Below are positions 30,604 through 64,000 of a stretch of DNA of 64,000 nucleotides, piece by piece; within the stretch, counting starts at the first letter, position 1; each line of letters starts with the position of its first letter. Where the stretch lies: the NCBI GenBank assembly GCA_016235495.1, contig JACRKH010000021.1:14725-78724 (forward strand), written 5' to 3'. The stretch is from Candidatus Woesearchaeota archaeon. Its GTDB lineage: Archaea > Nanobdellota > Nanobdellia > SCGC-AAA011-G17 > GW2011-AR17. The notes beneath the pieces were generated by a model. That model did no database searches. It was not told where the DNA came from and saw only the letters and a list, made by a program, of their open reading frames with translations. The position numbers and the translations under genes were made by a program.

Positions 30604-30724
30604 CTGTGAGCGGCCATAGTGGCCTGGTACCACCTGTTCCCATTTCGAACACAGAAGTGAAATAGGCCGACGTTCCGTTGCTGTACTGCATTAAATGCGG
30701 GAAACTCGGTTCGCTGCTCCACCT
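30604..30724 (+). rRNA. rrf: 5S ribosomal RNA, stand-alone
   Basis: GCGGCCATAGTGGCC...CCATTTCGAACACAGAAGTGAAATAGGCCGAC...GTACTGCATTAAATGCGGGAAACTCGG matches the 5S consensus (loop C/helix III motif, GTACTG). The 5' and 3' ends pair (gagcggc/gctgctc). A T-run terminator follows. Confidence 0.8.
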
Positions 30725-31986: not shown

Positions 31987-34027
31987 CAAAATTAAACTAG
32001 AGAATATTCGAAGTTATGTCTCTCAAGAAATTATTTTTCCCGAGGGGAAAGTACTGCTTTGGGGGAACATAGGCTCTGGCAAGAGCAGTATTCTCCACGC
32101 AATAGACTTTGCTCTCTTCGGTCTGCAGCGCTCTGAACTCGCAGGTGCATCACTCTTAAGAAATGGCACTGATGAAGGCACTGTAGAACTCTTCTTCTCC
32201 ATTGACGAAAAGGACTATGTGATAAAAAGAACCCTAAAAAGATCAAAATCTGCAGTCACACAAGATGCAGGATATATTATTCGCAATGGAATAAAGGAAG
32301 AAAAGACAGCAATAGAGCTCAAACAAATAGTTTTAGAATTACTCCATTATCCCAAAGACCTCATTACCAAAAACAAGACTCTTATTTATCGTTACACAGT
32401 CTACACACCGCAGGAGGAAATGAAAACAATCCTTCTTGGAAGCAAGGAAGAAAGACTGGACACTTTAAGAAAAGTATTTGCCGTGGACAAGTACAAAAGA
32501 ATCAAAGAAAATGTCAAAATTATTGTTTCAGATATGAAAGAAAAGAAAAAACTCTATGAAGGCGCAACAGTAGACATACAAGAGAAAATTATCGATAAAG
32601 AAAAAAAATCCCAAGAAAAAATTATCCTTGAGAAAAAACTCACAGAAATACTCATCCCATTAGAAGAACTAAGCAAAATGGTTCAGACAAAAAAAGAAGA
32701 GCTTATACTCCTTGAGGGAAAACGAGAAGAGATTCTCAAAGAAAAACGAGAACTATTTCTTTGGGAAATCGAGTGCAAAAATAAACTAAAAGAAAAAGAA
32801 GAAACAGAACAAAAAATATCTCTTCTCCAACAAGAAATAGTTATTTTAGAGAAGGAAAACCTAGAAACTCCTGATGTAAAAGAGAGTCTTTCAAAAGGAA
32901 ATGAATTGCTCACAGGAAAAGAAAAAGAGCTTCGTGAAATTCTTAACAAAATCCAAGATTGTAAAACCAGGAAAGCTCATGCACTTCTTATCAAACAAAA
33001 GGTAGAGAGTCTTGAGAAATGCCCCACATGTCAGCAGAAAGTTTCGCCTGAACACAAGCATAATATTATCGAAAAAACAAATGCAGAAACGCAAAATCAT
33101 GATAGTGAAATAGCCATTCTCGAAAAGAATCAGCAAACTAGAGAAGAAGAAATGAGAGATCTCCGGGGAGAAATAGATTTACTTCGGAAAAAAGAAAGCG
33201 AAGCAGCAATAAACCTAATGAAAAAGCAGCAACTGCTTAAAAAACGGGGAGAGTGTTTTGAGCTTATGGAAAAACTAACAGGAAATAAAAAATCCCAAGA
33301 GGAACTGAACACAAAAATAGCGGAAGCAAAGGAAAAACAGAAAGATACAGAAACATTAGAAATTTTATACATTGCAAACAAACAAGAAGCAGAACAGCTC
33401 CAGAACAAATATCACACACTCAACCTAGAAAAGGCAACAGTAACTGCAACACTGAACCATTATACACAGACCCTCAATCAATTAACAGAGGAAATTCAAA
33501 AGAAACTAATATTAAGAGAGAAAAAAGAATACCTCAATAAAATTCAATTCTGGTTAACAGATTCCTTCACGCCCTTGTTAGATACAATGGAAAAAAACAT
33601 CCTCTTCAAAGTGCATGCAGAATTCAACAGCCTCTTTGAAAAATGGTTTTCTATACTTATCGACAACCAAAGCCTGCAAATGAGTTTGGATGAAGACTAC
33701 TCCCCAAAAATTCTGCAGAATGACTATGATATCGAGTATGAATATCTTTCTGGTGGAGAGAAAACAGCAGGTGCCTTGGCATACAGATTAGCATTGAACC
33801 AAGTTATTAACAACATGAACACAGGAATAAAAACGAATGACCTCTTAATATTAGACGAACCAACAGATGGCTTTAGTCACGAACAATTAGACCGATTAAA
33901 GATTCTCATGGAAGAAATAAACATTCCACAAATAATTCTTGTCAGTCATGAGGCGCAGATAGAATGCTTTGCTGATCACATTCTTCGCTTTGAAAAACAA
34001 AACCATATCACAAGCCTTGTATCCTAA
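31976..34027 (+). CDS. rad50: Rad50 ATPase
   Basis: Walker A (GNIGSGKSS), long coiled-coil, zinc hook (CPTCQQ), signature (SGGEKTAGALA) and Walker B (LILDEP). It overlaps mre11 by 11 nt. Confidence 0.85.
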   Translation: MRINKIKLENIRSYVSQEIIFPEGKVLLWGNIGSGKSSILHAIDFALFGLQRSELAGASLLRNGTDEGTVELFFSIDEKDYVIKRTLKRSKSAVTQDAGYIIRNGIKEEKTAIELKQIVLELLHYPKDLITKNKTLIYRYTVYTPQEEMKTILLGSKEERLDTLRKVFAVDKYKRIKENVKIIVSDMKEKKKLYEGATVDIQEKIIDKEKKSQEKIILEKKLTEILIPLEELSKMVQTKKEELILLEGKREEILKEKRELFLWEIECKNKLKEKEETEQKISLLQQEIVILEKENLETPDVKESLSKGNELLTGKEKELREILNKIQDCKTRKAHALLIKQKVESLEKCPTCQQKVSPEHKHNIIEKTNAETQNHDSEIAILEKNQQTREEEMRDLRGEIDLLRKKESEAAINLMKKQQLLKKRGECFELMEKLTGNKKSQEELNTKIAEAKEKQKDTETLEILYIANKQEAEQLQNKYHTLNLEKATVTATLNHYTQTLNQLTEEIQKKLILREKKEYLNKIQFWLTDSFTPLLDTMEKNILFKVHAEFNSLFEKWFSILIDNQSLQMSLDEDYSPKILQNDYDIEYEYLSGGEKTAGALAYRLALNQVINNMNTGIKTNDLLILDEPTDGFSHEQLDRLKILMEEINIPQIILVSHEAQIECFADHILRFEKQNHITSLVS

Positions 34028-36149: not shown

Positions 36150-36275
36150 CCCCACGTAGCTTAATGGTTTGAGCACTTGGCTGTAGATAAATTCCCCTTT
36201 TGACACTGCAAAGCAGAGGATGAAATAAGGGTAGCTGAACCCGAGAGGTTCCTGGTTCGAGTCCGGGCGTGGGGA
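36150..36275 (+). tRNA. tRNA-Tyr (anticodon GTA) with a ~53-nt canonical-position intron (about 36188-36240)
   Basis: Acceptor ccccacg/cgtgggg (C1:G72, the archaeal Tyr identity pair), D-arm gctt..gagc, anticodon stem cttgg/ccgag with loop ctGTAga, T-arm cctgg-ttcgagt-ccggg, discriminator A. Confidence 0.7.
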
Positions 36276-36308: not shown

Positions 36309-36737
36309 CTAGAAAATCATACCCTTTAATGAAGGATAGAGCTTTTTCAGAAATGCTAAGACTTTATCTGCATATTCCTTATTGAAAATAGTCCCATAAT
36401 ATTTTATCCCATTTCTATTATATCTTAGTTCATTCATAAACCTTAATTCTGGCTCAGAAAACTGAAGAATTGTTAAATAGGAAACCTCTGCTTCATGAGA
36501 ACTCTTTGAGGCATATCCATCAAGAAGCATTTTTCCACGGATAATCTCAATAAGGATATCATAAGAAGAATCAATAATAAAATTAGGAGAGATTTTTTCT
36601 TTAGGAATTTTCTCTAAGGCTATTTCTAAGAATGCTTTCTTTTCTTGTGCCTCTTCAAGTAAAGATAAAGCTCTGGCTCTGTTTGAAGACTGTTTTGTGA
36701 CAATCCCCTCTTTTAGGAACTCCTCAAATACTTTCAT
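36309..36737 (-). CDS. HEPN-domain protein (toxin), paralogue of 24893-25297
   Basis: A C-terminal LRYNRNGIKYYG, the same R..N.YYG motif as the first HEPN. Confidence 0.6.
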   Translation of the reverse strand: MKVFEEFLKEGIVTKQSSNRARALSLLEEAQEKKAFLEIALEKIPKEKISPNFIIDSSYDILIEIIRGKMLLDGYASKSSHEAEVSYLTILQFSEPELRFMNELRYNRNGIKYYGTIFNKEYADKVLAFLKKLYPSLKGMIF

Positions 36738-37282
36738 AACTCTATTGCTCCATTAATTGTTATTCCATTAAGAATATTATTCAATAAGTGCTTGTCTATT
36801 CTTTTGAAAAAGTCATAAAAATTGATATTTATTTCTCGTTCTAATTTTTTCTCAAAAGCTTCTAAATTTATTTCTTTCTGTTTTGCTCCTATTACTGCTA
36901 TATCAATATCAGATCTTATTGTATCTTCCCCCCATGCATAAGAGCCAAACAATATAATGGTTGTACCAGGGAATTTCTTGCTCAGCTCTTCTACTAGCTT
37001 TGATTCATAAAGAAGTTTTATATTATTAGCCCTTTTTAAGCCGTGTATTAAAATATTATCTTCATTTAATGAAATGGAAAGCCTTTTTGTTTCTTTATTT
37101 TTGATGACTTTTATATAATCTTCCTTTTCTAAATTTCTTAATGCCTTTCCAATCCCTGGCTGTGAAACGTTTAATGCTACTGCTAGAGCCCTTGCTGTAA
37201 ATACCTCCCCTTTTCTTATGAAAAGAAAATTGAGTACTTCCTGTTCTAATATTGTTAACTGGAGTTTATACATAGTAACCAT
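36734..37282 (-). CDS. MNT nucleotidyltransferase with wHTH (antitoxin), paralogue of 24306-24896
   Basis: A GSYAWGEDTIRSDIDIAV motif and a 4-nt overlap with the HEPN gene. Confidence 0.7.
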   Translation of the reverse strand: MVTMYKLQLTILEQEVLNFLFIRKGEVFTARALAVALNVSQPGIGKALRNLEKEDYIKVIKNKETKRLSISLNEDNILIHGLKRANNIKLLYESKLVEELSKKFPGTTIILFGSYAWGEDTIRSDIDIAVIGAKQKEINLEAFEKKLEREININFYDFFKRIDKHLLNNILNGITINGAIEL

Positions 37283-43856: not shown

Positions 43857-44263
43857 ATGGATCTTGTTATTGATGCTAATATAGTTATTTCTACCATAAT
43901 AGCTCTCCAAGGAAAGACACGTGAGTTGCTTTTTCATGAAGATATTCATTTATTTGCACCAGAGTTTTTGTTGGAAGAATTTGCTAAGCATAGAAAAGAA
44001 ATACTTCAAAAATCTAAACTCCAAGATGAAGATCTTCAACTGGCCCTGAGTTTAATTTCTACAAGGATAAATTTCATCCCTTTTTCCGACATAGAAAAAT
44101 ATGTCTTTTCTGGAAGCTAAGCCCAGACCCAGATGTTGTAGAGTATTTTGCATTGGCACTAAAATTAAATTTTCCCATATGGACCAATGATAAGCTTTTG
44201 AAACAGCAAAGAGTGGTGAAGATCTATTCAACTTCAGAATTATTAAAAGATTTTAATCTCTGA
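43857..44263 (+). pseudogene. PIN-domain (VapC-like) toxin gene disrupted by a -1 frameshift near 44110-44120
   Basis: The N-terminal part (MDLVIDANIVIS...) stops at 44120. The C-terminal part (PDPDVVEYFALALKLNFPIWTNDKLL...) continues in the +2 frame to the TGA at 44263. Confidence 0.55.
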
Positions 44264-52514: not shown

Positions 52515-53134
52515 GAAGTATAACCCTCCCTTTTTTCTTTGCCATTAACAATGATAGTTGGACTTGTGGTAATATTATAATAGATTTTAACTGTGGAAAT
52601 GGCGCTATCTCCTGCAAAATTCTGGTTTATAGAGAATACATCAACACTTCCATTAGCTTCATTAGCAACCCTATCTAAAACATACCCCTGAAGAGCAGAT
52701 TGTGAATCTTCAGGATCATAGAAATAAAGGATAACATCATTTTTAATATGACATTTATCTTTGAGCTCATTAAACTGAGTATAACCTTTAATCTCCAAAA
52801 GGAAATAACGTCTTGCAAGATATTTAAATTCCGCATCTTGGAAAATATTTTTTTGTTCATAGGATTCCAAAGTCTGCCCCAATTGAATTAACTCAGAGGA
52901 AATTTGAGCAAGCCTTGGTTCAGCAAAACTACAATCATCACCCCCTGCAAAACTATCCAGAAAATTCTGTTCAATAAGAAAACTCTCTGTATCCAACTCA
53001 TTTGTTCGAAGATCATCAGAGACATCCTGGGATCGATACTTATCTAAATTCCAGCCCAATAATAACCCTGCTCCAAATACAAGAATGCTAATAAGTAAAG
53101 TAGTAAGGAATATCTGTTTTGAAAATCCTACCAT
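52475..53134 (-). CDS. Membrane-anchored protein with a thioredoxin-fold-like C-terminus (DsbA-like), but no CxxC
   Basis: An N-terminal TM and a C-terminal SPTIIVNGK pattern. Confidence 0.3.
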   Translation of the reverse strand: MVGFSKQIFLTTLLISILVFGAGLLLGWNLDKYRSQDVSDDLRTNELDTESFLIEQNFLDSFAGGDDCSFAEPRLAQISSELIQLGQTLESYEQKNIFQDAEFKYLARRYFLLEIKGYTQFNELKDKCHIKNDVILYFYDPEDSQSALQGYVLDRVANEANGSVDVFSINQNFAGDSAISTVKIYYNITTSPTIIVNGKEKREGYTSYEEVKVLLASDL

Positions 53135-54366
53135 TTCTTCCTCGCTCGAAACAATTCTTTATACACTGCAGTCATCCAGTGGCAGGATCGCATGACTGGA
53201 TATACAGTTAAGTATGCTGCCAATGCCAAGGGGAACCGCCATCTCTCTTTTAAGTTTTTATGTGCCAAATGGTAGATAAAAAGAGCAATACAAAAAGAAA
53301 TTGCAATAGGGAAGTAAATAGTCAGATTTATACCCAAGAAAAATTCTTTTACGCCGGGAATGTGGCCATCCAGAATATACAATGGCCCTAAATGAAAAAC
53401 CTTTAGAATTATTCCATATAATCTTTGACCAAAAGTAAAAGCCAACAAGCTAAACATAATAATAACAGTACCCACAGAAATAATATTCAAAGGATATTGA
53501 AAACTTCCAAGTATCCCATATTTCTTTTTGAAGAGCATCCCCTTATACTTCATATTGTTATAAATAAATCCTCTAAACCATCGCACCCTTTGCTTCCAAA
53601 GTGATGTAAATGTAGCAGGAGCCTTCGTGTAATTAACTGCTTCCTTTGCAAGCTTAATGCTATACCCATGATAGCGCAATCGCATAGCCATCTCAAGATC
53701 CTCCGTGATATTATGCTCATCAAATCCACCATATCTATCAAATATTTCTTTTCTGTACACACTAAGCGCACCAGGAGTAACATGCAGTGTATCAATCTTT
53801 GACATAAGCCCTCGGGTAAATGTCGCAAAGATATATTCCAAATGTTGTATCTTTTCATAAATTGTCTGTGGAGAATAAACCTTAATAGTGCTTATCACTG
53901 CACCAACATCCTTATCCCCAAAATAAGGAACCATATGCCCCAGAGCATCACTCATGACAATGGTATCAGCATCAACACAGGCGACAAACTCTCCATTGGC
54001 CTTACGCAGCCCTTCATTGAATGCATGCGCTTTCATATCCCCGCCATGCCTTTCCTTATAAGCAAGAATAATATGCTCAGAAGGATATTGCGCAATAAGC
54101 TGCCTCGCAATGGAAGAAGTTTTATCTGAAGAGCCATGGTCTACAATAATAATTTCTTTCTTATCAAGAGGATAATCAAGTGTAATCAAGGAGTGTACTG
54201 TTTTCCAAAGTCCTTTTTCCTCGTTATAAGCAGGGACAATGAAGCTAACCTTAGGAAATTCTTGCAAAGCCTTTGGCTTTTCCTCTCTAAGAGAAATAAC
54301 ATGCAGCCAGAATATCCCTACATACAAGCCTATGAAAGATACCCCCCAAATAAACCATCCTATCAT
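53128..54366 (-). CDS. Family-2 glycosyltransferase, processive polysaccharide-synthase type
   Basis: FIVPAYNEE, IIIVDHGSSD, DADTI and QRVRWFRG (QxxRW) motifs, with a C-terminal TM bundle. Confidence 0.7.
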   Translation of the reverse strand: MIGWFIWGVSFIGLYVGIFWLHVISLREEKPKALQEFPKVSFIVPAYNEEKGLWKTVHSLITLDYPLDKKEIIIVDHGSSDKTSSIARQLIAQYPSEHIILAYKERHGGDMKAHAFNEGLRKANGEFVACVDADTIVMSDALGHMVPYFGDKDVGAVISTIKVYSPQTIYEKIQHLEYIFATFTRGLMSKIDTLHVTPGALSVYRKEIFDRYGGFDEHNITEDLEMAMRLRYHGYSIKLAKEAVNYTKAPATFTSLWKQRVRWFRGFIYNNMKYKGMLFKKKYGILGSFQYPLNIISVGTVIIMFSLLAFTFGQRLYGIILKVFHLGPLYILDGHIPGVKEFFLGINLTIYFPIAISFCIALFIYHLAHKNLKERWRFPLALAAYLTVYPVMRSCHWMTAVYKELFRARKKW

Positions 54367-55799
54367 GCACTAACCTTCCAAATTTCTACTCCATCTTTAT
54401 CATAGATTCTATTAAAGCTTTTGGTGTACTGCAGTATAAAAAGGAGGCCATCAGTATCATAGTCCCATAGCTTATTTTTCATGCTGGAATCAATCCATAC
54501 ATAGCGAATATCATACTTTGCAAATAATTCACTGGTTCTATTCAGATCTCTCGATGCAAACAATTCCTGAGAATCACGAAGCCTTTCCTTAGAGTCAGGG
54601 GCAAAAACATAATTCTCATCCATAACATTTTCATGTCCGGATGAAGTAATCCATGACCCCTTGCTATAATCACTAAACACAACACCAGATTCCTGTTCAG
54701 CAAGGAAGGCTATAGCTTCCAGCTCTGCTTCATTCGGTTCTGTGTTGAGAATAGTATTCATTTGTGAAATAGCTGAGAAAACAAACCCCGAAAGAATCAC
54801 TAAAAGAATAAAATAATGATAATATTCGTGAGTCCATTTCCTTTCAGCAAGAAAAATAAATCCCTTTGCAGCAAGAATAATGAGAAAGAGGTTAAGGACA
54901 AGACTGCTTTCCGGAATAAAAAAAGCAAGAGTAAGGAAAAGCAAGACACTAAAGAAAATAAAAAGATGTTCATATTTTTCTCCCCAGAATAAAAGTATAC
55001 CTAATGCTCCCAAGAGGGATATAAAAATGCTCAGCCCATAAGCGCTTCCAAGATCATAAAATAAGGAACCAAGGAGATGGAAATTTCCTCCTTGTACAAG
55101 ATCAATTTGTTGCGGGAGTCCGGCCTTGTAAAAGATATATCCATAATAAAGCCCTGTGACAAGAATAGAGAATAATAGAAGGATAAAAAATAATTTTTTT
55201 CTATCTTTTCGTACAAAGAAGCTATAGAAGCAGAGTAGCAAAAGAAACAAACCTGTAACAATAAGATTAAAGAGTGGTAAAACGAGCACAATAGGAATAA
55301 CCCAAAACTTAAACTTCTTCTCTATAAACAAATAAAACCCGGCAAGTGAGAGGAAGAATGCAATAAATAAACTATTTGTGAAACTAAAGAGATAAATAAA
55401 AGAAGGGGAAAGGATAAACAAAAGTAAGCTGAGATAAATAAAAGTAGCATCCTTGCTAAAATGTTTAAGTATCCTTTCAACAAGTAAAACACTGAGAATC
55501 CCCAATAAAAAAGGAAGTACAACGAGAAGCACACTCGGTGTAGCACTTAACACCAGACCGGTGCCCCATGGGTAGGCAGCAAACCTCCCGCCAAAGCTGA
55601 GAGGATCATACAAAGAATGCAAACTCGCAATTCGGGAATAAAAGAAAGGCTCTGTGCCAATCAAAGGCCCTTTAAGCAGAGGGACAACTAAGAGAAGTAC
55701 GGTACAGAGTGCTAAAAGCACATACCTAACATACCACTTTGTAAATAGTTGCAAATCCATTCTTGAATACTTCCTGGAAGCAATTTTCATCGCTTGCAT
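54363..55799 (-). CDS. Large multi-TM membrane protein with a C-terminal soluble domain (putative GT-C / glycosylation)
   Basis: Paralogous to the next gene; the two share C-terminal motifs (YDIRYVWIDSSMK...VEIWKV versus YGVQYVYFSDKTK...ATIYKVV). Confidence 0.4.
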   Translation of the reverse strand: MQAMKIASRKYSRMDLQLFTKWYVRYVLLALCTVLLLVVPLLKGPLIGTEPFFYSRIASLHSLYDPLSFGGRFAAYPWGTGLVLSATPSVLLVVLPFLLGILSVLLVERILKHFSKDATFIYLSLLLFILSPSFIYLFSFTNSLFIAFFLSLAGFYLFIEKKFKFWVIPIVLVLPLFNLIVTGLFLLLLCFYSFFVRKDRKKLFFILLLFSILVTGLYYGYIFYKAGLPQQIDLVQGGNFHLLGSLFYDLGSAYGLSIFISLLGALGILLFWGEKYEHLFIFFSVLLFLTLAFFIPESSLVLNLFLIILAAKGFIFLAERKWTHEYYHYFILLVILSGFVFSAISQMNTILNTEPNEAELEAIAFLAEQESGVVFSDYSKGSWITSSGHENVMDENYVFAPDSKERLRDSQELFASRDLNRTSELFAKYDIRYVWIDSSMKNKLWDYDTDGLLFILQYTKSFNRIYDKDGVEIWKVSA

Positions 55800-57192
55800 A
55801 TTTTAATTCACGCACATCATAAAGAGCTTTAGTCTTATCGGAGAAATAAACATATTGAACTCCATAATTATCTAAAGCTTTCTTTGCCTTGACAACAGAC
55901 TCTGTCGTAAATATAGTTTGGACATCTAAGATTCTACTGTCTGCTCGAAGAAATTCTGTATCTATAACATTTGTCCGGTCTGCAATAGAAATAATAAGAT
56001 TCCCTTCATAAGCATTTGCAGCAATGACACTATCATGGGCTGTATTAAATTTAATCCAATGTAAAGCCTCAATTTCTGCAGGAGTAACTCCTGTATGTAC
56101 CACTTTCAGCGCGCTTGTCGTCGAAGGAATAAGTAAAGTTGTCACAGTGAGAATAATAAAAATGCTTATAATCAATTTACTTTTTTTTGCAATTTTTGTA
56201 AGGGGTAAATATTCCATAATTTTTGCCATACTGACTGCAGAGACAATGCAAAGTATAATCGCAAGAAATATAATCCCATCCCTGAACGCAATAATACGCA
56301 ATAAGAGCAGACTAAAATCCGCAGCAAGCACTGCGCTAAGCAAAATCATAACCCTGCTCTTTCTTTTGTAAAGAATGAATCCAGCAACACCTAATAGTAA
56401 AGGAATGACACCAACACTAGCAACAGTTTCAAAGAGATTAAAATTCTGGAAAATCTGCCCATAAAGTTCTAAAGGTAAATTTCCCCAAATCGTTGCAAGT
56501 CCTTGTTTAAGATAAAGTTGTTTATAGAGGATAAGATTGACAAGGAGAAAAAAAACGACAAAAAGACCCATACCATCTACTTCCTCTCTTTTCAAGGTTA
56601 AGGATTCAGCAAATATGAGAATTCCAAAAAATAAAAGAGTGAAAAGCATAAGTAAATTCAAAGGCTGCAGTAAAACAAGAATAATAACAGAAGCAAAGAA
56701 CCACATTTTTTTTCTTTCAATCTCCAGAAGAAAATACAAAGTAAGAAGAAAGAGTGGCACAAATACGCTTAGAATAGAAATCTGATTTATGGTTGCTCCA
56801 ATGAAACTAGGAATAAAAGCACTGAGCAACGCTGCAAAGAGTGAGGCATATTCATTCTGAGTAAGCTCCTTTGCAAGAAGATAAACAATAAAAACAATAC
56901 TGCTCGCAAGCAAGGCAGGAAGTAATTTATAGACCACAACATCCGGAAGCGTGGAATTAAAGAAAGCAAGAAAGTAATGAAAGACATGCGTATTAAGAAT
57001 AATATTCCCTCCATAACTTTGGGGATCATAGATCAAGGGAAAAAAATGTTGAAGAATATATTTTGAGTGTCTGAGATTAAAATAAGCCTCATCACTGCTG
57101 TAAAAAGGAACACGAAACAAAAACAGAAGACGAAAACCGAATGCCACAAGAAAAGTCAAGAATAAAATGAGATGCTCTCTTTTGATTCCCAT
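55726..57192 (-). CDS. Large multi-TM membrane protein, a paralogue of the previous gene (putative GT-C)
   Basis: The first loop has SSDEAYFNLRH, which resembles the D-x-x-Y-x-x-x-R loop of STT3/AglB-type enzymes. No WWDYG motif is present. Confidence 0.4.
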   Translation of the reverse strand: MGIKREHLILFLTFLVAFGFRLLFLFRVPFYSSDEAYFNLRHSKYILQHFFPLIYDPQSYGGNIILNTHVFHYFLAFFNSTLPDVVVYKLLPALLASSIVFIVYLLAKELTQNEYASLFAALLSAFIPSFIGATINQISILSVFVPLFLLTLYFLLEIERKKMWFFASVIILVLLQPLNLLMLFTLLFFGILIFAESLTLKREEVDGMGLFVVFFLLVNLILYKQLYLKQGLATIWGNLPLELYGQIFQNFNLFETVASVGVIPLLLGVAGFILYKRKSRVMILLSAVLAADFSLLLLRIIAFRDGIIFLAIILCIVSAVSMAKIMEYLPLTKIAKKSKLIISIFIILTVTTLLIPSTTSALKVVHTGVTPAEIEALHWIKFNTAHDSVIAANAYEGNLIISIADRTNVIDTEFLRADSRILDVQTIFTTESVVKAKKALDNYGVQYVYFSDKTKALYDVRELKYASDENCFQEVFKNGFATIYKVVC

Positions 57193-57193
57193 T

Positions 57194-57916
57194 TTATCTG
57201 CCAAAATCATCAGCATCAAGACTAAGAAGGACTTCGTGAGGGCTTCTCTCTACTTCCAAACCCTCATTTGTTGCAGTGACTGCCTCCTCTTTCTCACTGG
57301 TATTTTTCTTTTTTCTTACCAGTTTTATTTCTTTATCCTTCTTTTCTTCTTCAGGAGCAGGAGTTTCTTCTTGAGGAGTATCCTTCACTGGAGCTTCAGA
57401 GACATCGCTCAGTTTTTCCTGCCTTTCCATAACATCCTGCATCTTCTGTTTCATATTTGCTTCAATGACATCGAAATATTCAAAGAATTTAGGGGCAAGT
57501 TTCAATGTTCTTGTTCTTCCATGCTTTTCAGAAGCAATAAATTCAATATCTTTCAAATGATGAATATGATCATAAGCAGTATTCCCGCGCATTTTAATAA
57601 TATCAGACTGCAGTATAGGCTGTTTGTATGCAATCAAAGCAAGAGTAGCTTGTGTTGGAGCATCCAACTCTGCACCGCTTAAAAGCTTTGTAGAAAGATG
57701 ATTGTACTGCTTTTTTATATTGAGCCTATACTTTCCATCTTCACAAAAAATCTCAAGACCTCCCAGCCTATTTTGATACTCCTTCATAAGCTCATGCATA
57801 GCATCCTTGAGAGAGCCAACACTGCCAATGTTGCAGAACTGTGCAATTTCCTCCAAACTCATTGCCTTCCCAGTAATAAAGAGCACCGCTTCTATCTTAT
57901 TTTTAATTTCCTGCAT
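57194..57916 (-). CDS. scpB: Segregation and condensation protein B (ScpB)
   Basis: Tandem wHTH (IEAVLFITGKAMSLEEIAQ...) and an acidic tail. Confidence 0.7.
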   Translation of the reverse strand: MQEIKNKIEAVLFITGKAMSLEEIAQFCNIGSVGSLKDAMHELMKEYQNRLGGLEIFCEDGKYRLNIKKQYNHLSTKLLSGAELDAPTQATLALIAYKQPILQSDIIKMRGNTAYDHIHHLKDIEFIASEKHGRTRTLKLAPKFFEYFDVIEANMKQKMQDVMERQEKLSDVSEAPVKDTPQEETPAPEEEKKDKEIKLVRKKKNTSEKEEAVTATNEGLEVERSPHEVLLSLDADDFGR

Positions 57917-58035: not shown

Positions 58036-58701
58036 ATGAAATTCTATGAAATAAAACCTGGATTGCGAGGCATAGAAAATATTGCAGGGCAGCCAGTAAC
58101 TTTTTCAGAACTCTATGGAACAAGAATTTGGGATCCAAGTTACACAGAAGGTCTCAATATTCTCACTGCTACAAGAACATTCTGCCTCCATGCACCAGGA
58201 AGAAGATTCAAAGTTTCAGATACATTTCCCTGGAGGATGCTCCATCCAAAATATTTAGATAGAGCTTCATTTGGAGAAAAATCAGTTGTTTCAATAATGG
58301 AAGAAGAATATGCAACAGCTGAGGGAGCAGAATTTATACTTATCCACCCTATTGACTTTCCAAGAGAAACCTATGCTCTCCCTATAAATCATTTCATTAA
58401 CCCTAGGCTCACAAAAGAAGAGCTCACAAAGATAGCCTCGCCAATAGAAAGAGGTCTAGGAAGAAAAGAGGCCTTGGATCATAAAGTTCTTTTCTCCCTT
58501 CTTGAAGAGAATAGTGATATTGTAAAAGAAGTTGTAGAGTATGCATTTGCCCATAATACTTCTGGGTCGCTTCCATTAGAAATAACAATCAAGGATGCAG
58601 GTTGTTATGGAGCAACAATGTTTGCAACGACAGGGTATAGTGAAGGTTTTAGAATAACAAACCAATCATTTAAAGAAAAACTTCTATTTTTTATTCCTTA
58701 A
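58036..58701 (+). CDS. Hypothetical protein, 221 aa
   Basis: An open frame with no recognised domain. Confidence 0.35.
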   Translation: MKFYEIKPGLRGIENIAGQPVTFSELYGTRIWDPSYTEGLNILTATRTFCLHAPGRRFKVSDTFPWRMLHPKYLDRASFGEKSVVSIMEEEYATAEGAEFILIHPIDFPRETYALPINHFINPRLTKEELTKIASPIERGLGRKEALDHKVLFSLLEENSDIVKEVVEYAFAHNTSGSLPLEITIKDAGCYGATMFATTGYSEGFRITNQSFKEKLLFFIP

Positions 58702-60185
58702 CTCAAAGCAAAACGCAGAATTGCAGCAATCTTTCCAATATCCCTCAGCTGTTCACCTTCGCTCGTATCAGTGCTGATAATAAAAAGTTCCGCACCTGAC
58801 TGCTCTGCAACTTCCTCGAAATGATCAACCTTCTCATCATCCATAGACTCAGAGACAAGCAATGTATGCACAGCACCCATTTCTAAAGCCCGGCTCACTT
58901 CTGCCTCGCCATAAGCAACTTTTTCAGGCTCTGTTGCAAGCAGCTTGAAAAACTTGCTCATAATCTCCCTCTCTTCGGTAATAGCTTCCTTCGCAAGAGC
59001 ATCCTTGCTTTTCTCGACGAGCTCTCGCAGTCCAAAATCTCCTGTATAGCTCAGATCCTGAATGCTGACCACTTTCCTTTTTAACTGCTCATTCAAAAAA
59101 CCTTCATCAATAAAATGATTTTTCGTCATACCTGGCCCGCCAAGAAGTATTCCTTTTAATTCTTTAACCTCAAGAAAAGCTTTGTTCGCTGCTTCGCTAA
59201 TTCTATTAAAAAATTCTTTTGTCGCCTCTTCCCTTATTCTTGCAAATCTCTGAGCAGAATTATGCACAACAATTCCTTCAGCGATAAAATTTTCATTCTC
59301 TACTTTTATATCAATAAGCCTCATAGTTTTATCTTCAACAACAATTTTTTTTATGACTTCTCCCTTGCCATCATCATTGAGAAGCATCATTCCTTCTCGA
59401 AGTTCTTCGGCAGCTTTAGTTGTACCATCCTCTAAGAAGAAAAGATGATTTGCAGATGCAGTTATTGCTTCAGAAGCAGTAATCACATAAATTTTATTTT
59501 TTGTGACATCCCATTTCTCCAAAACTTTACTGGGAACAAAATCTTTTTTTGTAAAATCATAACTTAATACCATATCTCCAATTTCAAGATCTTCCAGAGG
59601 AACCCACTGCCCATCATCAAGACAAACCGCAGTTTCCGGATGTAAACACTGCCCTCCAGCCCTTGTCTTTCCAGGAACAGCAGAAGTCAGTTCAGTAACC
59701 TGCTGAATTTGTGTCCCTTTGAGAAAACCAATATTCCCTTCTCTTTTATCAAGAACAATAAGTCCATAAGTCTCCCGTACATCCATCATTTCTTTCAAGA
59801 CCTCAAGAATAAAAGTTTGGTCGCAGCGATACAATCGTATACGCAGCGGCTGAGGAGGCTCAATGCTGAATACCTGAATGTCTGTTTTTCCTTCTTTATC
59901 AGAAATATTCCCTGAAAATACAGCAAGCCCATTCTCAGGAGTTTTCTTAAACAGCCGCAGATGTCGAATCATTCTTTCTAAAGAATCAATAACATGTAGC
60001 TGTGTTGTTTTATCTTTAATGTTTGATGCAGTACCCTGCTCCTGTGCAAGATGTTGAATAATTTTAATAAGTTCATAGCCAGCAGGGACATACACAGAAA
60101 CAAGCTCAGTATGTCTCCCTCTAATATTTTGCAAGCTGCGTACAAAACGCTTCAATTTTTGTTTTTCTTTGGTGCTTATCTGCAT
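58698..60185 (-). CDS. prf1: Peptide chain release factor aRF1 interrupted by a mini-intein after the GGQ motif
   Basis: An eRF1 domain-1 NIKS-like (TASNIKD), GGQ at aa 177-179, and eRF1 domain 3 in the C-terminus. Confidence 0.85.
   Translation of the reverse strand: MQISTKEKQKLKRFVRSLQNIRGRHTELVSVYVPAGYELIKIIQHLAQEQGTASNIKDKTTQLHVIDSLERMIRHLRLFKKTPENGLAVFSGNISDKEGKTDIQVFSIEPPQPLRIRLYRCDQTFILEVLKEMMDVRETYGLIVLDKREGNIGFLKGTQIQQVTELTSAVPGKTRAGGQCLHPETAVCLDDGQWVPLEDLEIGDMVLSYDFTKKDFVPSKVLEKWDVTKNKIYVITASEAITASANHLFFLEDGTTKAAEELREGMMLLNDDGKGEVIKKIVVEDKTMRLIDIKVENENFIAEGIVVHNSAQRFARIREEATKEFFNRISEAANKAFLEVKELKGILLGGPGMTKNHFIDEGFLNEQLKRKVVSIQDLSYTGDFGLRELVEKSKDALAKEAITEEREIMSKFFKLLATEPEKVAYGEAEVSRALEMGAVHTLLVSESMDDEKVDHFEEVAEQSGAELFIISTDTSEGEQLRDIGKIAAILRFALS
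59259..59648 (-). mobile_element. Mini-intein (130 aa, HINT domain only) in aRF1 immediately after GGQ
   Basis: The extein KTRAGGQ is followed by CLHPETAVCLDDGQ (block A), then ...EGIVVHN, then Ser. Its size leaves no room for an endonuclease domain. Confidence 0.8.
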
Positions 60186-60224: not shown

Positions 60225-62612
60225 CTAAATTATAATGCTCAATTTATTCCCAAAACTTATTTTTTCAGCTTTGGTGACAGCCTTAAAATCATCAATAAAA
60301 CCCGCAACATCTTTTTCATTCATTGGTAGAATAATTTCCTTGACATTTTCTTTCAAAGAAAGATTTCTTTCTGATTTTGCTTTTCGCACAAGAGAAATAA
60401 TTTCAATAATTTCATCACCCTTCTTTTCTATATCCTTTTCTATTAATTTTTTATCCGCGATTGGCCAGGATTCAAGGTGAATAGATTTCTTTTCTTTGAA
60501 AACACTTTGATAAATTTCTTCAGTAACATAAGGCATAAGTGGAGCAAACATTTTCAATAAATCCAATAAACACTGTGAAAGAGTATACTGCGCTGAAGCC
60601 TTTGCTTCTTTTCCTCTTGCATCTGAGTTGTAGAGTCTATCTTTAACAATTTCGAGATACAAATCACAGAATGTAATCCAAAAGAATTTTTCTGTTTCAG
60701 ATTTCACTTTAGAATATTCATAAATCTCAAAATTTTCTGTATTTGCTACAATAAGTTTTTGCAGTTTAGAGAGCATCCATACATCAAATGCTTCCATTTT
60801 TCCTTTCTTCCCATTAAAATCAGCAAACTGAGGAACACAGAACCGCGTTGCATTCCAAAGCTTGGTAATTGTTTTCTGCCCTGTAAACAAATCTTTCTCA
60901 AGATATCGCAAATCATCACCGAGCTTCGATCCTGCTGCCCAGAATCGCAGAGCATCAGCAGGATATTTCTTCAACACTTCCCCAGGCTCTATAGTATTGC
61001 CCTTAGATTTATGCATAGATTCCCCCTTGGGATCAAGCACATGCCCAGAGATAACAATATTTTTCCATGGAGCTTTTCCCTCATGGTAGACACCTTGTAC
61101 AATAGTATAGAAAGCCCAAGTTCGAATGATATCATGTGCCTGTGGTCTGAGACTGCAAGGATACATTTTCTCAAAATCAATATCATATCCTTTGTCTTTC
61201 GCCCAATTGAGTATAATCTGCGGGCTCACACTAGAAGTTGCCCAAGTATCCATAACATCTTTCTCACCTTCAAACTCTTGTGAACCACAGGAGCATTTTC
61301 CTTTTGGCTTTGCTGCTAAAGGATCAACAGGCAGTTGATTTTTATCAGCAACAAGAACATTGCCGCACTTTTTACAATTCCACACAGGAAAAGGAACACC
61401 AAAATGTCTCTGACGAGAAATGCACCAGTCCCAACCTAATCCCTCAATCCAGTGCTCGTACCGAGTGCGCATAAATTCTGGATGCCAAGAAATCTTTTTT
61501 CCTGCTGCAATAAATCTTTCTTTATTCTCTAAAATTTTAATGAACCATTGTTTCGTGCTAAGAAATTCAATTTCTGTTCCGCATCGCTCATGCACATTTA
61601 CAGTATGTCGAATAGCCTTCTTTGTCACAAGCAGTTTTTCTTTTTCCAAATCATGAAGAATTTCTCGTCGGGCATCTTTAATCTTCAACCCTTCATATTT
61701 CCCAGCAAGAGCATTCATTTTTCCATCACGGGTAAAAACAACTCTTGGGCTTAATTGTCTTCTATTGACAGCCTCAACATCATTCTTATCTCCATAACTG
61801 CAAATCATCAATATCCCTGTTCCTTTTTCCATCTGAACCGAAGGATCAGGGAATATAGGAACACTATGATGAAATAAAGGAACTATTGCACTCTTTTCTA
61901 AAAGGTGGGTATATCTTTTATCATTAGGATGTACAAATATTGCAACACAGGCGGCAAGTAACTCAGGTCTTGTTGTTGCAATAATAATCTTTTCTCCATT
62001 TTCAACAGTAAAATAAATATCATTGAAAGTAGAATCAAAATCTTTATCTTCTAAATCTGCCTGCGCAATAGCAGTCTGGCACTGGACACACCACATGCTT
62101 GGTGCAATGTGTTGGTAAACTAAATCTTTTTGATATAAATCTAAGAAAGATAACTGCGAAGTTTTGATAGAATGTGCATCAATGGTAGAGTATGCCTCAG
62201 AAAAGTCACAGCTCATCCCAATAATTTTCCAGTCATTGATAAAATCAGGTTTAATTTCTTTTATAGTTTTGTCACAGAGCGCAACAAACTCAGCTCTGCT
62301 CATCTTTGTAGATTTTACATTTTTTAATTTTTCAACAAGCCTTTCTGTAGGCAGACCATTATCATCAGTGCCAAAAGGATAAAACACATTTTCTCCCTTC
62401 ATTCTATGGTATCGTGCAATAAAATCCTGCTGGCTATAAGAGAATGCATGCCCAATATGCATTTTCCCAGAAACAGTTGGTGGGGGGGTATCAATAGCAT
62501 AAAGTTTTTTCTTAGAGTTTTTATCAAACTTGTAAATGCCTTCCCTCTCCCAATATGCTCTCCACTTTGCCTCAGATGCACAAGAGTCATACTTTTCAGC
62601 AAGTTCTTTCAT
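60225..62612 (-). CDS. valS: Class I aminoacyl-tRNA synthetase, most likely valyl-tRNA synthetase
   Basis: HIGH (PPPTVSGKMHIGHA), ISRQ and KMSKS-like (MHKSKGN) motifs. The 795-aa size fits a compact ValRS better than IleRS or LeuRS. Confidence 0.6.
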   Translation of the reverse strand: MKELAEKYDSCASEAKWRAYWEREGIYKFDKNSKKKLYAIDTPPPTVSGKMHIGHAFSYSQQDFIARYHRMKGENVFYPFGTDDNGLPTERLVEKLKNVKSTKMSRAEFVALCDKTIKEIKPDFINDWKIIGMSCDFSEAYSTIDAHSIKTSQLSFLDLYQKDLVYQHIAPSMWCVQCQTAIAQADLEDKDFDSTFNDIYFTVENGEKIIIATTRPELLAACVAIFVHPNDKRYTHLLEKSAIVPLFHHSVPIFPDPSVQMEKGTGILMICSYGDKNDVEAVNRRQLSPRVVFTRDGKMNALAGKYEGLKIKDARREILHDLEKEKLLVTKKAIRHTVNVHERCGTEIEFLSTKQWFIKILENKERFIAAGKKISWHPEFMRTRYEHWIEGLGWDWCISRQRHFGVPFPVWNCKKCGNVLVADKNQLPVDPLAAKPKGKCSCGSQEFEGEKDVMDTWATSSVSPQIILNWAKDKGYDIDFEKMYPCSLRPQAHDIIRTWAFYTIVQGVYHEGKAPWKNIVISGHVLDPKGESMHKSKGNTIEPGEVLKKYPADALRFWAAGSKLGDDLRYLEKDLFTGQKTITKLWNATRFCVPQFADFNGKKGKMEAFDVWMLSKLQKLIVANTENFEIYEYSKVKSETEKFFWITFCDLYLEIVKDRLYNSDARGKEAKASAQYTLSQCLLDLLKMFAPLMPYVTEEIYQSVFKEKKSIHLESWPIADKKLIEKDIEKKGDEIIEIISLVRKAKSERNLSLKENVKEIILPMNEKDVAGFIDDFKAVTKAEKISFGNKLSIII

Positions 62613-62766
62613 TCAAAATTTTTAACTTCCGCATCTTTAAAAGCTTTTTTGTCCCTCTCTTGTTCCAGAATCTATATAAATAGTCACTTAACTAGCTTAA
62701 ACCCTAGAATTTTTATCGAAACTATGCAAGCATAAATTAATAAATCTTCTTCGCCCTATATTTTTT

Positions 62767-64000
62767 ATGGGAGCTCATTTGATATCATTAACAGAAAAGA
62801 TTATTCATTTGAATCAAAGGCAAATTGCTATTCTCAGAGACTTTGAGTACCGCCAGAAATTCTTTGCTCGTCACAAACAAGAAGTAGATGCACTCGTAAA
62901 TGCAGCAGAACAGCTTATTCACAAGCCTACACCAAAAATATATAGAATACTGCAAGCACATGTCACAGCCTTGCAAGTTCTCATGAGCACTTCATTGCGT
63001 TACCTCTCTCAGGAAGAACTAGAACGTGATGAAACAAATCTTCTCTCTGAAGAAAGAACAGCAGACACAAATGCACTTCGTATGTTGGAGACAGACTACA
63101 CAGAACTTTGGCAGAATCTTAAACAATTGCATGAGGGAGAAGTAAAATCTTCATTAATGCTTTATCTGATTGATCTTCAGAAAGAAGAGGATGATGTAAA
63201 AAAAGAGCAGAGCATAAATAAAGAATTACAAAAGATTCTTGCAAATTTAGAAGGGCTTATTGAAGAAGAAAAAAACCTTCTTGAGGATGAATTGAATATT
63301 CTCCATCAAAAATTTAATTTTTCTCTTAATCAACTTGACGAGACAAAGAAAGCAGAACTCAGTTCAGCAGCAGAATCTATTGTCCATGTGGCAGAAAGTT
63401 TAAGAAATCTTATAGAGAGAGAAAATGGCCGGTTTATACAGCCGCTTCGTGCATTCACTTCACAGAAATATGCTCTGAATCAAAGGATTCTCCGTACAGT
63501 AAGCAGGAAAGTCATAACCCTGGGCATGATAAAAAGAGATCTTGCAGAATTAAAGCCTCTGCAGGCAGAACAATACATGGAACAGCTATTTGAACACTAT
63601 CAACAATTTGAACCCACTGCGGTAACATATTTTCTTCGTTTTAAACGTTTTATGGGAAGAAAGACCAAAGAAAAAACAATGAAAGAAGAACAGCTTATAA
63701 GAGAAGGAATAGCAGTGCACAAGACAAGAGCGCAATATGACTCACTAGGAATGTTGAACAGAAAATATGGTGACGAACTGCTTACAGAAAGAATCAAACT
63801 TGCACTCACAAAGGGGGAAGAGATATTCATTCTTCTCATAGATGCAGACAAGTTCAAAGAAATAAATGATACCTATGGCCACCATACTGGAGATATAGTT
63901 CTCATGGCAATTTCATCGATAGCACAGGAAAGCATTGGAGAAAAAGACACTTTCTTTCGCTGGGGGGGTGAAGAATTTATAGTTCTTTTTAACTCTATTA
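62767..64000 (+). CDS. Signal-transduction protein with an N-terminal coiled-coil region and a C-terminal GGDEF (diguanylate cyclase) domain; partial, runs off the window end
   Basis: I translated the frame by hand. It is open from the ATG at 62767 to 64000. The C-terminus reads YDSLGMLNRKYGDE...ILLIDADKFKEINDTYGHHTGDIVL...FFRWGGEEFIVLF, the GGDEF consensus with a GGEEF active site. It is missing from the ORF track because it has no stop. Confidence 0.7.
   Translation, partial: MGAHLISLTEKIIHLNQRQIAILRDFEYRQKFFARHKQEVDALVNAAEQLIHKPTPKIYRILQAHVTALQVLMSTSLRYLSQEELERDETNLLSEERTADTNALRMLETDYTELWQNLKQLHEGEVKSSLMLYLIDLQKEEDDVKKEQSINKELQKILANLEGLIEEEKNLLEDELNILHQKFNFSLNQLDETKKAELSSAAESIVHVAESLRNLIERENGRFIQPLRAFTSQKYALNQRILRTVSRKVITLGMIKRDLAELKPLQAEQYMEQLFEHYQQFEPTAVTYFLRFKRFMGRKTKEKTMKEEQLIREGIAVHKTRAQYDSLGMLNRKYGDELLTERIKLALTKGEEIFILLIDADKFKEINDTYGHHTGDIVLMAISSIAQESIGEKDTFFRWGGEEFIVLFNSI

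What the first reader, a model, noticed from the sequence alone, without database searches (positions are those of the whole stretch)
62767..64000. A GGDEF diguanylate cyclase gene in an archaeal genome, missed by the ORF track
The + strand is open from the ATG at 62767 to the end of the window (411 or more codons, checked codon by codon). The last ~90 residues match the GGDEF domain closely. The NRKYGDE linker, the D-x-D-x-F-K-x-IND-x-x-GH-x-x-GD metal and substrate motif, and an intact RWGGEEF active site are all present. The N-terminal ~300 aa are helical or coiled-coil with no TM helix, suggesting a cytoplasmic sensor. Every other marker in the window is archaeal (histone, eL/eS ribosomal proteins, PriS, aRF1, Pth2). 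To my recollection c-di-GMP signalling domains are essentially absent from archaea, so an apparently active GGDEF here would be either a rare horizontal acquisition from bacteria or evidence of c-di-GMP (or another cyclic dinucleotide) signalling in this lineage.
Basis: partly seen in the sequence, partly recalled or inferred. Interest (0 to 1): 0.75.

Follow-up and report, generated by a model that had tools for sequence, protein, structure and literature searches.

The report
Native diguanylate cyclase in Woesearchaeota
The window ends in a real, selectively maintained gene for a c-di-GMP-making enzyme that belongs to a small family found only on DPANN (Woesearchaeota-type) archaeal contigs, which gives a concrete protein for testing whether this "bacterial" second messenger also exists in archaea.

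Summary
The + strand is open from the ATG at 62767 to the window end (411 codons). The full protein is 516 aa, GenBank MBI5797612.1, already named "diguanylate cyclase [Candidatus Woesearchaeota archaeon]".

It is neither a chimera nor a recent bacterial import:
- An independent assembly spans the junction with 100% identity.
- Codon usage and GC3 are typical of the window.
- Orthologues sit between ValRS and TrpRS on at least four other archaeal contigs, where housekeeping neighbours are 68-79% identical and the GGDEF protein only 30-42%.
- dN/dS against an 86%-identical orthologue is 0.13.

The protein belongs to a family of about 20 clusters (at 50% identity). All share a roughly 320-aa helical N-terminal module with no Pfam match. 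Every looked-up context longer than 2 kb is archaeal. The catalytic residues are invariant in all 19 aligned members, and about half keep an RxxD product-inhibition site, which the window protein has lost.

No EAL, HD-GYP, PilZ or c-di-GMP riboswitch was found in about 70 kb. Best reading: a cytoplasmic, dimerising, GTP-specific diguanylate cyclase native to this lineage. Activity, signal and receptors are untested. The catalytic domain is ordinary; the setting and N-terminal module are not.

The parts
62767..64000 (+). 5' 80% (codons 1-411 of 516) of the GGDEF protein gene, equal to GenBank MBI5797612.1. The gene ends 318 nt beyond the window.
   Evidence: Open frame. 100% identical to the 516-aa P0001. 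L081 continues the window with 100% nucleotide identity.
62767..63732 (+). N-terminal helical module (aa 1-322). It consists of long antiparallel helices, has no TM segment and no Pfam family, and is specific to this archaeal family.
   Evidence: AF2 helices 2-52, 56-86, 89-118, 125-182, 192-245 and 283-322. No Pfam or NCBIfam hit. phmmer over 1.84 billion representatives finds 23 proteins, 21 of them this family (19 of ~430-540 aa plus 3 fragments), the other a spurious repeat protein. KD maximum 0.88.
63613..63732 (+). Predicted stalk helix (aa 283-322) leading straight into the GGDEF domain. It is the likely dimerisation and signal-transmission element.
63733..64000 (+). First half of the GGDEF catalytic domain (aa 323-411).
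63841..63894 (+). Metal and substrate motif D359-x-D361-x-F-K364-x-x-N367-D368-x-x-G-H-x-x-G-D376. These correspond to PleD D327, N335 and D344 at a constant offset of 32.
   Evidence: Sequence. D359, D361, F363, K364, N367, G375 and D376 are invariant in all 19 aligned family members and in 68 mixed GGDEF sequences.
63958..63978 (+). R398-W-G-G-E-E-F404 active-site (A-site) loop. The I-site position five residues upstream reads GEKD, not RxxD.
   Evidence: Sequence. R398 and GGEE are invariant in the family.
62613..62766 (.). Divergent intergenic region between ValRS and the GGDEF gene. It holds an A/T-rich box at 62732-62745, centred about 29 nt before the ATG, which is a candidate archaeal TATA box for a leaderless or short-leader mRNA (inference).
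   Evidence: The 41 nt before the ATG are 40/41 identical in the orthologous locus L097, although dS between the genes is 0.57 (sequence).
60225..62612 (-). Valyl-tRNA synthetase, the conserved upstream syntenic anchor.
   Evidence: ORF. ValRS lies next to the GGDEF orthologue in L081, L082, L083 and L092 and is 68-73% identical.

Best explanation
The ORF encodes a soluble, cytoplasmic diguanylate cyclase that is a native, vertically inherited gene of a Woesearchaeota-type (DPANN) archaeon. Proposed mechanism: two subunits pair through the long stalk helix (aa 283-322) and the helical N-terminal module. This brings two GTP-loaded GGDEF half-sites together to make c-di-GMP. The N-terminal module sets the register or geometry of the stalk in response to an unknown cytoplasmic ligand or protein partner. 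This particular protein has lost the RxxD I-site, so it is not feedback-inhibited by product in the usual way.

Shown here: the domain identity, the intact catalytic residues, the archaeal context, the conservation and the purifying selection.

Inferred: dimerisation through the stalk, c-di-GMP as the product, the sensory role of the N-terminal module, and the existence of downstream receptors.
For: Domain identity:
- PF00990 at 86 bits and TIGR00254 at 83 bits.

Catalytic inventory, complete and invariant or nearly so in 19 family members:
- D359, D361, K364, N367, D376, R398 and GGEE400-403 are invariant.
- K501 is nearly invariant (at least 90%) and R505 is conserved in most members (K in two).
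- The guanine-specifying Asp (D376, equivalent to PleD D344) is kept, so there is no Hypr-type Ser.

Genuine archaeal locus:
- The independent Logan assembly L081 is 100% identical across 62000-64000 and continues into TrpRS and an archaeal SbcD-related phosphoesterase.
- RSCU distance ranks 4th closest of 61 genes. GC3 is 0.299 against a window mean of 0.297. The tetranucleotide profile is typical.
- All other window genes with a domain-diagnostic family match are archaeal-type, and none is specifically bacterial.

Vertical retention:
- The order ValRS | (small ORF) | GGDEF | TrpRS | ... | phosphoesterase recurs in L082, L083, L085 and L092.
- Neighbours are 58-79% identical while the GGDEF orthologues are 30-42% identical.
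- More remote family members lie next to TBP, MCM, RFC and IleRS, or next to a HerA-like gene, a Mre11-like gene, AspRS and Translin.

Selection:
- dN/dS is 0.13 overall, 0.12 for the N-terminal part and 0.14 for GGDEF, with dS 0.57.
- An RxxD I-site is present in 10 of 18 full-length members, which argues that the family's product is c-di-GMP.
Against: - No enzymatic data exist.
- No EAL, HD-GYP, PilZ or c-di-GMP riboswitch was found in the 64-kb window plus 6 kb downstream. A complete signalling circuit is therefore not shown, and the rest of the genome could not be examined.
- c-di-GMP has never been detected in any archaeon (PMC8646023, PMC10249747).
- The GGDEF domain carries a family-specific helical insertion (about aa 432-487) of unknown effect.
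- The DxLT-G-L-xNR turn is one residue shorter here (DSL-GMLNR).
- The small neighbouring protein that accompanies most family members is missing from this locus.
- The N-terminal fold matches only generic helical bundles, so the signal is unknown.
Confidence: 0.72

Rival explanations
1. Assembly chimera or bin contamination: a bacterial GGDEF fragment was joined to archaeal DNA at about 62.6-62.8 kb.
For: GGDEF proteins are overwhelmingly bacterial. Outside the family, every hit that carries an organism name is bacterial. Galperin et al. raised exactly this concern for draft archaeal genomes (PMC5847659).
Against: A second assembler (Logan, SRR12113407) gives the identical junction and continues into archaeal genes. 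The same junction, ValRS then GGDEF then TrpRS, occurs in at least four other metagenomes from diverged organisms. Codon usage, GC3 and tetranucleotides are indistinguishable from the rest of the window. The N-terminal 320 aa have no bacterial homologue.
Confidence: 0.02
2. The GGDEF domain is retained but does not act as a diguanylate cyclase. It could make another nucleotide product (for example 3',3'-cGAMP as Hypr GGDEFs do, or a linear or mixed dinucleotide). It could also act as an NTP-binding or NTP-hydrolysing regulatory domain, with no c-di-GMP signalling in the organism.
For: No PDE, receptor or riboswitch for c-di-GMP was seen in about 70 kb. c-di-GMP has not been detected in archaea (PMC8646023, PMC10249747). 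There is a family-specific insertion in the domain. The fifth motif residue varies (GGEEF, I, V or M) in some members.
Against: The guanine-specifying N367 and D376 and all metal- and phosphate-binding residues are strictly conserved. The Hypr signature (Ser or Thr in place of the PleD D344 equivalent) is absent. Half the family keeps RxxD at the canonical spacing, and that site binds c-di-GMP. The domain superposes on active DGCs at 1.8-2.4 A.
Confidence: 0.15
3. A recent horizontal transfer of a bacterial DGC into this single genome, carried as a passenger gene of no lineage-level significance.
For: The ultimate origin of the GGDEF domain is presumably bacterial. GGDEF-only trees do not resolve the family as a clade.
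Against: Positional orthologues exist in relatives whose ValRS and aRF1 are only 68-79% identical. The gene is fully ameliorated. The closest bacterial GGDEF domains are only 33-38% identical by BLASTP (up to about 45% over trimmed alignment columns). dN/dS is 0.13. The N-terminal module is found only on archaeal contigs.
Confidence: 0.05

Closest known systems
Bacterial stalk-helix/coiled-coil diguanylate cyclases (C. crescentus DgcB 6ttr, P. aeruginosa SiaD 7e6g, WspR, PleD)
   Different: All equivalog scores are far below cut-off (SiaD 84 bits against 290). The N-terminal 320 aa are unrelated to REC, PAS, GAF, Cache or SiaD's N-terminus (no Pfam hit). There is an extra helical hairpin after the A-site helix. 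This protein has no I-site. The host is an archaeon.
GGDEF proteins previously noted in archaea: Methanocella arvoryzae CAJ37382; REC plus inactivated GGDEF in 'Ca. Micrarchaeum acidiphilum'; more than 300 unvalidated BLAST hits in Asgard and DPANN MAGs
   Same: They are GGDEF domains on DNA assigned to archaea (PMC5847659; PMC8646023).
   Different: Those reports are census entries whose authenticity was left open. The Micrarchaeum proteins have inactivated motifs. Here the active site is intact and the gene is shown to be syntenic, ameliorated and under purifying selection.
Archaeal c-di-AMP system (DacZ diadenylate cyclase, Haloferax volcanii)
   Same: It is the cyclic-dinucleotide second-messenger system described as experimentally studied in archaea (PMC8646023, PMC12699388). 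It is therefore the functional analogue.
   Different: It has an unrelated fold (DAC domain) and a different nucleotide. No homology is claimed.

Membership tests
GGDEF domain / diguanylate cyclase (Pfam PF00990, TIGR00254) | Profile-HMM score above the curated threshold | tested here: met
   PF00990 scores 86 bits against 23.8 on the truncated window ORF. TIGR00254 scores 83 bits against 37.4.
GGDEF domain / diguanylate cyclase (Pfam PF00990, TIGR00254) | Intact GG[DE]EF A-site with the preceding Arg | tested here: met
   R398-W-GGEEF404. R398 and GGEE are invariant in 19 family members.
GGDEF domain / diguanylate cyclase (Pfam PF00990, TIGR00254) | Mg2+-binding Asp, guanine-binding Asn and Asp (PleD D327, N335, D344; numbering recalled from the PleD literature) | tested here: met
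   D359, N367 and D376 sit at a constant offset of 32 from PleD numbering. They are invariant.
GGDEF domain / diguanylate cyclase (Pfam PF00990, TIGR00254) | C-terminal phosphate-binding Lys and Arg (PleD K442, R446) and a complete domain | tested here: met
   This part lies beyond the window but is present in the full protein: ADEALYEAK501GTGR505N. K501 is nearly invariant and R505 is conserved in most members.
GGDEF domain / diguanylate cyclase (Pfam PF00990, TIGR00254) | GGDEF fold (beta-alpha-alpha-beta-beta-alpha-beta core) | tested here: met
GGDEF domain / diguanylate cyclase (Pfam PF00990, TIGR00254) | Conversion of 2 GTP to c-di-GMP by a dimer | not testable with these tools
   This needs enzyme assays. 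A stalk helix suited to dimerisation is only predicted.
GGDEF domain / diguanylate cyclase (Pfam PF00990, TIGR00254) | RxxD allosteric I-site five residues before GG[DE]EF (common but not defining) | tested here: not met
   The window protein reads GEKD. RxxD is present in 10 of 18 other family members.
Hypr GGDEF (3',3'-cGAMP synthases) | Ser or Thr replacing the guanine-specifying Asp (PleD D344 equivalent) | tested here: not met
   D376 is retained in all members.
Complete c-di-GMP signalling module | A c-di-GMP phosphodiesterase (EAL PF00563 or HD-GYP) | tested here: not met
   None was found among all 72 other window ORFs of at least 80 aa or among the genes downstream on L081.
Complete c-di-GMP signalling module | A known receptor (PilZ, c-di-GMP-I or -II riboswitch) | tested here: not met
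   There is no PilZ hit in the same scans. Rfam at gathering threshold on the window, L081 and L082 gives only 5S rRNA and tRNAs.
Known anti-phage defence systems (PADLOC) | Match to a defence-system protein model | tested here: not met
   No hit for the GGDEF protein or the small partner.

The most novel reading that the evidence does not exclude
DPANN (Woesearchaeota-type) archaea run a genuine c-di-GMP pathway built from a lineage-specific cyclase family and non-canonical partners. In this reading, the roughly 170-aa protein that sits immediately next to the cyclase gene in most family loci acts as its regulator or as a new type of c-di-GMP effector. That protein has no Pfam, PDB or PADLOC match and only 7 relatives among 5.8 billion proteins. 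Turnover would be carried out by something other than EAL or HD-GYP. This would be the first c-di-GMP signalling system in the domain Archaea.
Probability: 0.35. Interest if true: 0.85.

Novelty: new variant of a known kind. Interest (0 to 1): 0.6.

Why it matters
Reviews up to 2023 state that c-di-GMP has not been described in archaea and that diguanylate cyclases are almost exclusively bacterial (PMC10249747). Census papers left open whether GGDEF hits in draft archaeal genomes are contamination (PMC5847659, PMC10086821).

This locus answers the authenticity question for one family by computation. It also supplies a specific, soluble 516-aa protein (MBI5797612.1) that could be expressed and assayed directly. 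If active, it extends c-di-GMP signalling to a third of the prokaryotic tree's deep diversity. It then raises the question of what the messenger controls in ultra-small, probably host-dependent cells that lack the known receptors.

Tried and rejected
- **Genome-contig scan.** The scan with the 411-aa ORF was swamped by the DKFKEIND pattern. It returned only bacterial GGDEF loci and not the source genome.
- **Metagenome-contig scan.** The scan with the N-terminal alignment used low-complexity patterns and confirmed nothing.
- **Full GGDEF domain search.** Only bacterial or unnamed hits at 33-38% identity were returned, so no donor could be named.
- **Neighbour-joining trees of the GGDEF domain alone.** With 243-244 sequences, three trimmings and bootstrap, the family was never recovered as a clade (support 0). 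The domain is too short and saturated. Common ancestry therefore rests on the shared N-terminal module, architecture and synteny. An earlier run that showed monophyly used an incomplete member set and is not relied upon.
- **afdb50 fold search.** The library was unavailable.
- **Pfam, PDB-sequence and PADLOC searches of the small partner protein.** All were empty.
- **Partner protein near the window gene.** A six-frame hmmsearch found no copy in the window, L081 or L092.
- **Syntenic Metallophos phosphoesterase as a candidate PDE.** This was set aside. It matches an archaeal SbcD-related family (TIGR00024), and the whole region is syntenic anyway.

Full report
**1. The observation**

Translating 62767-64000 in frame gives 411 codons without a stop. 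The mechanical ORF list does not show it because ORFs that run off the source are not listed. "Missed by the ORF track" is therefore an edge effect.

- Pfam scores residues 323-409 as GGDEF: PF00990, E = 3.2e-24, 86 bits against a gathering score of 23.8, profile positions 2-89 of 161.
- NCBIfam TIGR00254 agrees at 83 bits against 37.4. All named equivalog models (SiaD, PleD, DgcN and others) fall far below their cut-offs.

**2. The whole gene**

A protein search returns a 516-aa protein that is 100% identical over the 411 residues (P0001). It is GenBank MBI5797612.1, "diguanylate cyclase [Candidatus Woesearchaeota archaeon]", on a 79-kb contig.

An independent Logan assembly of run SRR12113407 (L081, 18.6 kb) is identical to the window over 62000-64000 and extends it by 6 kb. 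The missing C-terminus completes the domain: ISVSAGLAG and ADEALYEAK501GTGR505N.

Compared with solved GGDEF domains there is an insertion around aa 432-487. The model shows it as an extra helical hairpin.

**3. The DNA is archaeal and the junction is real**

All 72 other ORFs of at least 80 aa in the window were scanned against Pfam. They include:
- an archaeal histone, eS4, eL32, eL19, aIF1/SUI1 and RNase P p29;
- a Sec61-type SecY and an EMC3/YidC-like protein;
- an intein-containing PriS, Mre11/Rad50, PTH2 and an intein-containing aRF1;
- ValRS and MetRS.

Rfam adds a 126-nt (intron-containing) tRNA that ARAGORN does not call.

The GGDEF ORF has GC 0.37 and GC3 0.299 against a window mean of 0.297 ± 0.052. 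Its synonymous-codon profile is the 4th closest of 61 genes to the rest of the window. Its tetranucleotide profile is unremarkable.

**4. Conserved position in diverged relatives**

| Locus | Source | Gene order |
|---|---|---|
| L082 | Logan SRR22387819 | ValRS(-), 165 aa, GGDEF, TrpRS, ..., SbcD-related phosphoesterase(-), 216 aa |
| L083 | 37-kb JGI contig | GT2, two unknown ORFs, ScpB, 233-aa ORF, aRF1 with intein, ValRS, 166 aa, GGDEF, TrpRS, ..., phosphoesterase (same 20-kb order as the window) |
| L085 | NCBI GCA_964532745.1 | 5' partial ORF, 167 aa, GGDEF, TrpRS, 374-aa ORF(-), phosphoesterase(-) |
| L092 | JGI | ValRS(-), GGDEF, TrpRS, phosphoesterase(-), 204 aa |
| L084 | Logan | 193 aa, GGDEF, phosphoesterase |

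Across these loci ValRS is 68-73% identical, aRF1 79% and the phosphoesterase 51-73%. The GGDEF protein in the same slot is only 30-42% identical. The gene has therefore been in place since well before these organisms diverged, and it evolves faster than housekeeping genes.

Against the 86%-identical orthologue (L097), Nei-Gojobori dN/dS is 0.13 (dS 0.57). The two halves are alike: 0.12 for the N-terminal part and 0.14 for GGDEF.

The last 41 nt before the ATG are 40/41 identical between the two loci. They include an A/T-rich box centred about 29 nt upstream. I read this as a candidate archaeal TATA element for a leaderless or short-leader mRNA; this is an inference.

GGDEF and TrpRS are separated by only 24-45 nt on the same strand in five loci. 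Co-transcription is plausible but untested.

**5. A family, not a singleton**

The N-terminal 320 aa were searched by phmmer against 1.84 billion representatives. There were 23 hits at E ≤ 1e-3, of which 10 had E ≤ 1e-30. One is a spurious repeat protein (P0250); the other 22 are 19 proteins of about 430-540 aa with the same N-terminal-module-plus-GGDEF architecture and three shorter fragments.

Remote members (23-28% identity) lie in other archaeal contexts:
- TBP(-) | GGDEF | 175 aa | CARDB/PKD protein | IleRS, with MCM and RFC nearby. This is on a 149-kb contig of GCA_974502265.1, on GCA_018653605.1 ("archaeon") and on several marine metagenome contigs.
- HerA-like | GGDEF | 175 aa | Mre11-like, with AspRS, Translin and OapB/C nearby, on GCA_041599235.1.

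Every look-up that returned flanking genes showed an archaeal context. One (L089, 1.8 kb) had no informative neighbours.

In the 19-sequence alignment D359, D361, F363, K364, N367, G375, D376, R398 and G400-G401-E402-E403 are invariant. D368, G371, H372, K501 and G504 are at least 90% conserved. The fifth motif residue is F, I, V or M.

Ten of 18 full-length members have RxxD exactly five residues before GGEEx, which is the canonical product-inhibition site. The window protein (GEKD) and its closest relatives have lost the Arg. Retention of a c-di-GMP-binding site in half the family is indirect evidence that c-di-GMP is the product.

**6. Structure**

With the family alignment AF2 gives mean pLDDT 83.
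- Helices 2-52, 56-86, 89-118, 125-182 and 192-245 form the N-terminal module.
- Two short helices follow, then a 40-residue helix (283-322) that runs into a confidently modelled GGDEF domain.

Hydropathy excludes TM segments. The likely mechanism is the common one for stalk-helix DGCs: a parallel dimer whose helix register, set by the N-terminal module, controls whether the two half-sites meet. Dimerisation and the input signal are inferred, not shown.

**7. What is missing**

No EAL, HD-GYP or PilZ domain and no c-di-GMP riboswitch occur in the window or the 6 kb beyond it. The rest of the genome could not be inspected.

No bacterial donor can be named. The best non-family GGDEF domains are 33-38% identical, and domain-only NJ trees are unresolved.

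**8. A conserved neighbour seen elsewhere**

Most family loci carry a 165-193-aa ORF directly beside the cyclase gene. It lies upstream in L082-L085 and downstream in L087, L088 and L093-L096. The two positional classes are homologous (BLASTP E = 1e-10 to 1e-16) and share the motif PxSTPRNxPYxxTGRE...NLPNALH.

This protein has no Pfam, PDB-sequence or PADLOC match. It has only seven relatives in 5.8 billion proteins, and each one looked up was again next to a roughly 505-aa GGDEF gene. It is absent from the window, L081 and L092. It is a candidate regulator or effector for the family, but it is not part of this locus.

**9. Comparison with the literature**

- Galperin et al. 2018 found a single GGDEF domain in complete archaeal genomes. 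They left bacterial-type proteins in draft genomes as possibly contamination (PMC5847659).
- Braun et al. 2021 detected no c-di-GMP in H. volcanii or S. acidocaldarius, but noted more than 300 GGDEF BLAST hits in Asgard and DPANN (PMC8646023).
- Römling 2022 wrote that the presence "need[s] to be confirmed in archaeal contigs" (PMC10086821).
- A 2023 review states that c-di-GMP has not been described in archaea (PMC10249747).

My literature searches found no paper describing this family.

**10. Verdict**

The catalytic domain is an ordinary GGDEF and the gene is already labelled as such in GenBank, so this is not a new kind of enzyme.

Three things are new:
- the demonstration that it is a bona fide, selectively maintained archaeal gene;
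- the definition of a family, found so far only on archaeal contigs, with an undescribed N-terminal module and a family-specific insertion;
- the associated small protein.

Interest is moderate to high (0.6). It turns "is there c-di-GMP in archaea?" into a one-protein experiment.

Noticed in passing
L082:866-1363, L083:9461-9961, L084:1373-1954, L085:1091-1594 (upstream of GGDEF); L087:9537-10064, L088:2432-2959, L093:6001-6522, L094:5530-6051, L096:2743-3267 (downstream): A family of proteins of about 170 aa sits immediately next to this GGDEF family in most loci, with the motif PxSTPRNxPYxxTGRE...NLPNALH. It has no Pfam, PDB or PADLOC match and only 7 relatives in 5.8 billion proteins. It is absent from the window, L081 and L092. 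It is a possible partner or effector.
   Followed up: partly
window 58698-60185 (-): aRF1 is interrupted by a mini-intein (Hint/Intein_splicing, about aa 177-309). The orthologue on L083 carries one too.
   Followed up: partly
window 26497-29385 (+): The primase small subunit PriS (962 aa) carries a large intein with a LAGLIDADG homing-endonuclease domain.
   Followed up: no
window 36150-36275 (+): Rfam calls a tRNA spanning 126 nt (model positions 1-71), which implies an intron of about 50 nt. ARAGORN does not report it.
   Followed up: partly
window 30606-30722 (+): A lone 5S rRNA gene lies between a Cas4-like PD-(D/E)XK nuclease (29761-30582) and Mre11/Rad50 (30790-34027), away from any 16S or 23S.
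   Followed up: no
window 24306-25297 (+) and 36309-37282 (-): There are two wHTH plus nucleotidyltransferase (NTP_transf_2) genes. Each overlaps a small ORF with no Pfam match (134 and 142 aa). They look like MNT/HEPN-type toxin-antitoxin pairs. A Fic gene (8654-9418) and a PIN gene (43857-44120) are also present.
   Followed up: no
window 53128-57219 (-); L083:1-3965: A PgaC/chitin-synthase-like GT2 (412 aa) is followed by two ORFs of about 480-500 aa with no Pfam match. The block is syntenic in L083 and lies 8 kb from the GGDEF gene. Bacterial c-di-GMP often controls such synthases, but no link is shown here.
   Followed up: no
L081:11590-12702 vs L082:3034-4140, L083:11603-12709, L085:3225-4343, L092:4620-5711: The TrpRS in the conserved slot after GGDEF is 72% identical to the window organism's in L085, but only 39-47% identical in L082, L083 and L092, even though ValRS is about 70% identical. 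The best-matching NCBIfam sub-models also differ. This suggests in-place replacement by a different TrpRS type.
   Followed up: partly
L081:14248-14928 (-) and orthologues in L082-L085, L092: An archaeal SbcD-related Metallophos phosphoesterase (TIGR00024) is always 1-3 genes downstream of the GGDEF gene, and directly adjacent in L084. This is probably synteny only, but it is the only phosphoesterase near the cyclase.
   Followed up: no
L090:640-1440 (-): A remote relative's contig carries a second, short (266-aa) GGDEF protein besides the family member. At least some of these archaea therefore encode more than one GGDEF protein.
   Followed up: no
L081:12683-13828 (-): A free-standing LAGLIDADG-like ORF (381 aa; weak homing-endonuclease hit in PADLOC) is inserted between TrpRS and VapB. 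It is in this genome only, among the syntenic loci.
   Followed up: no
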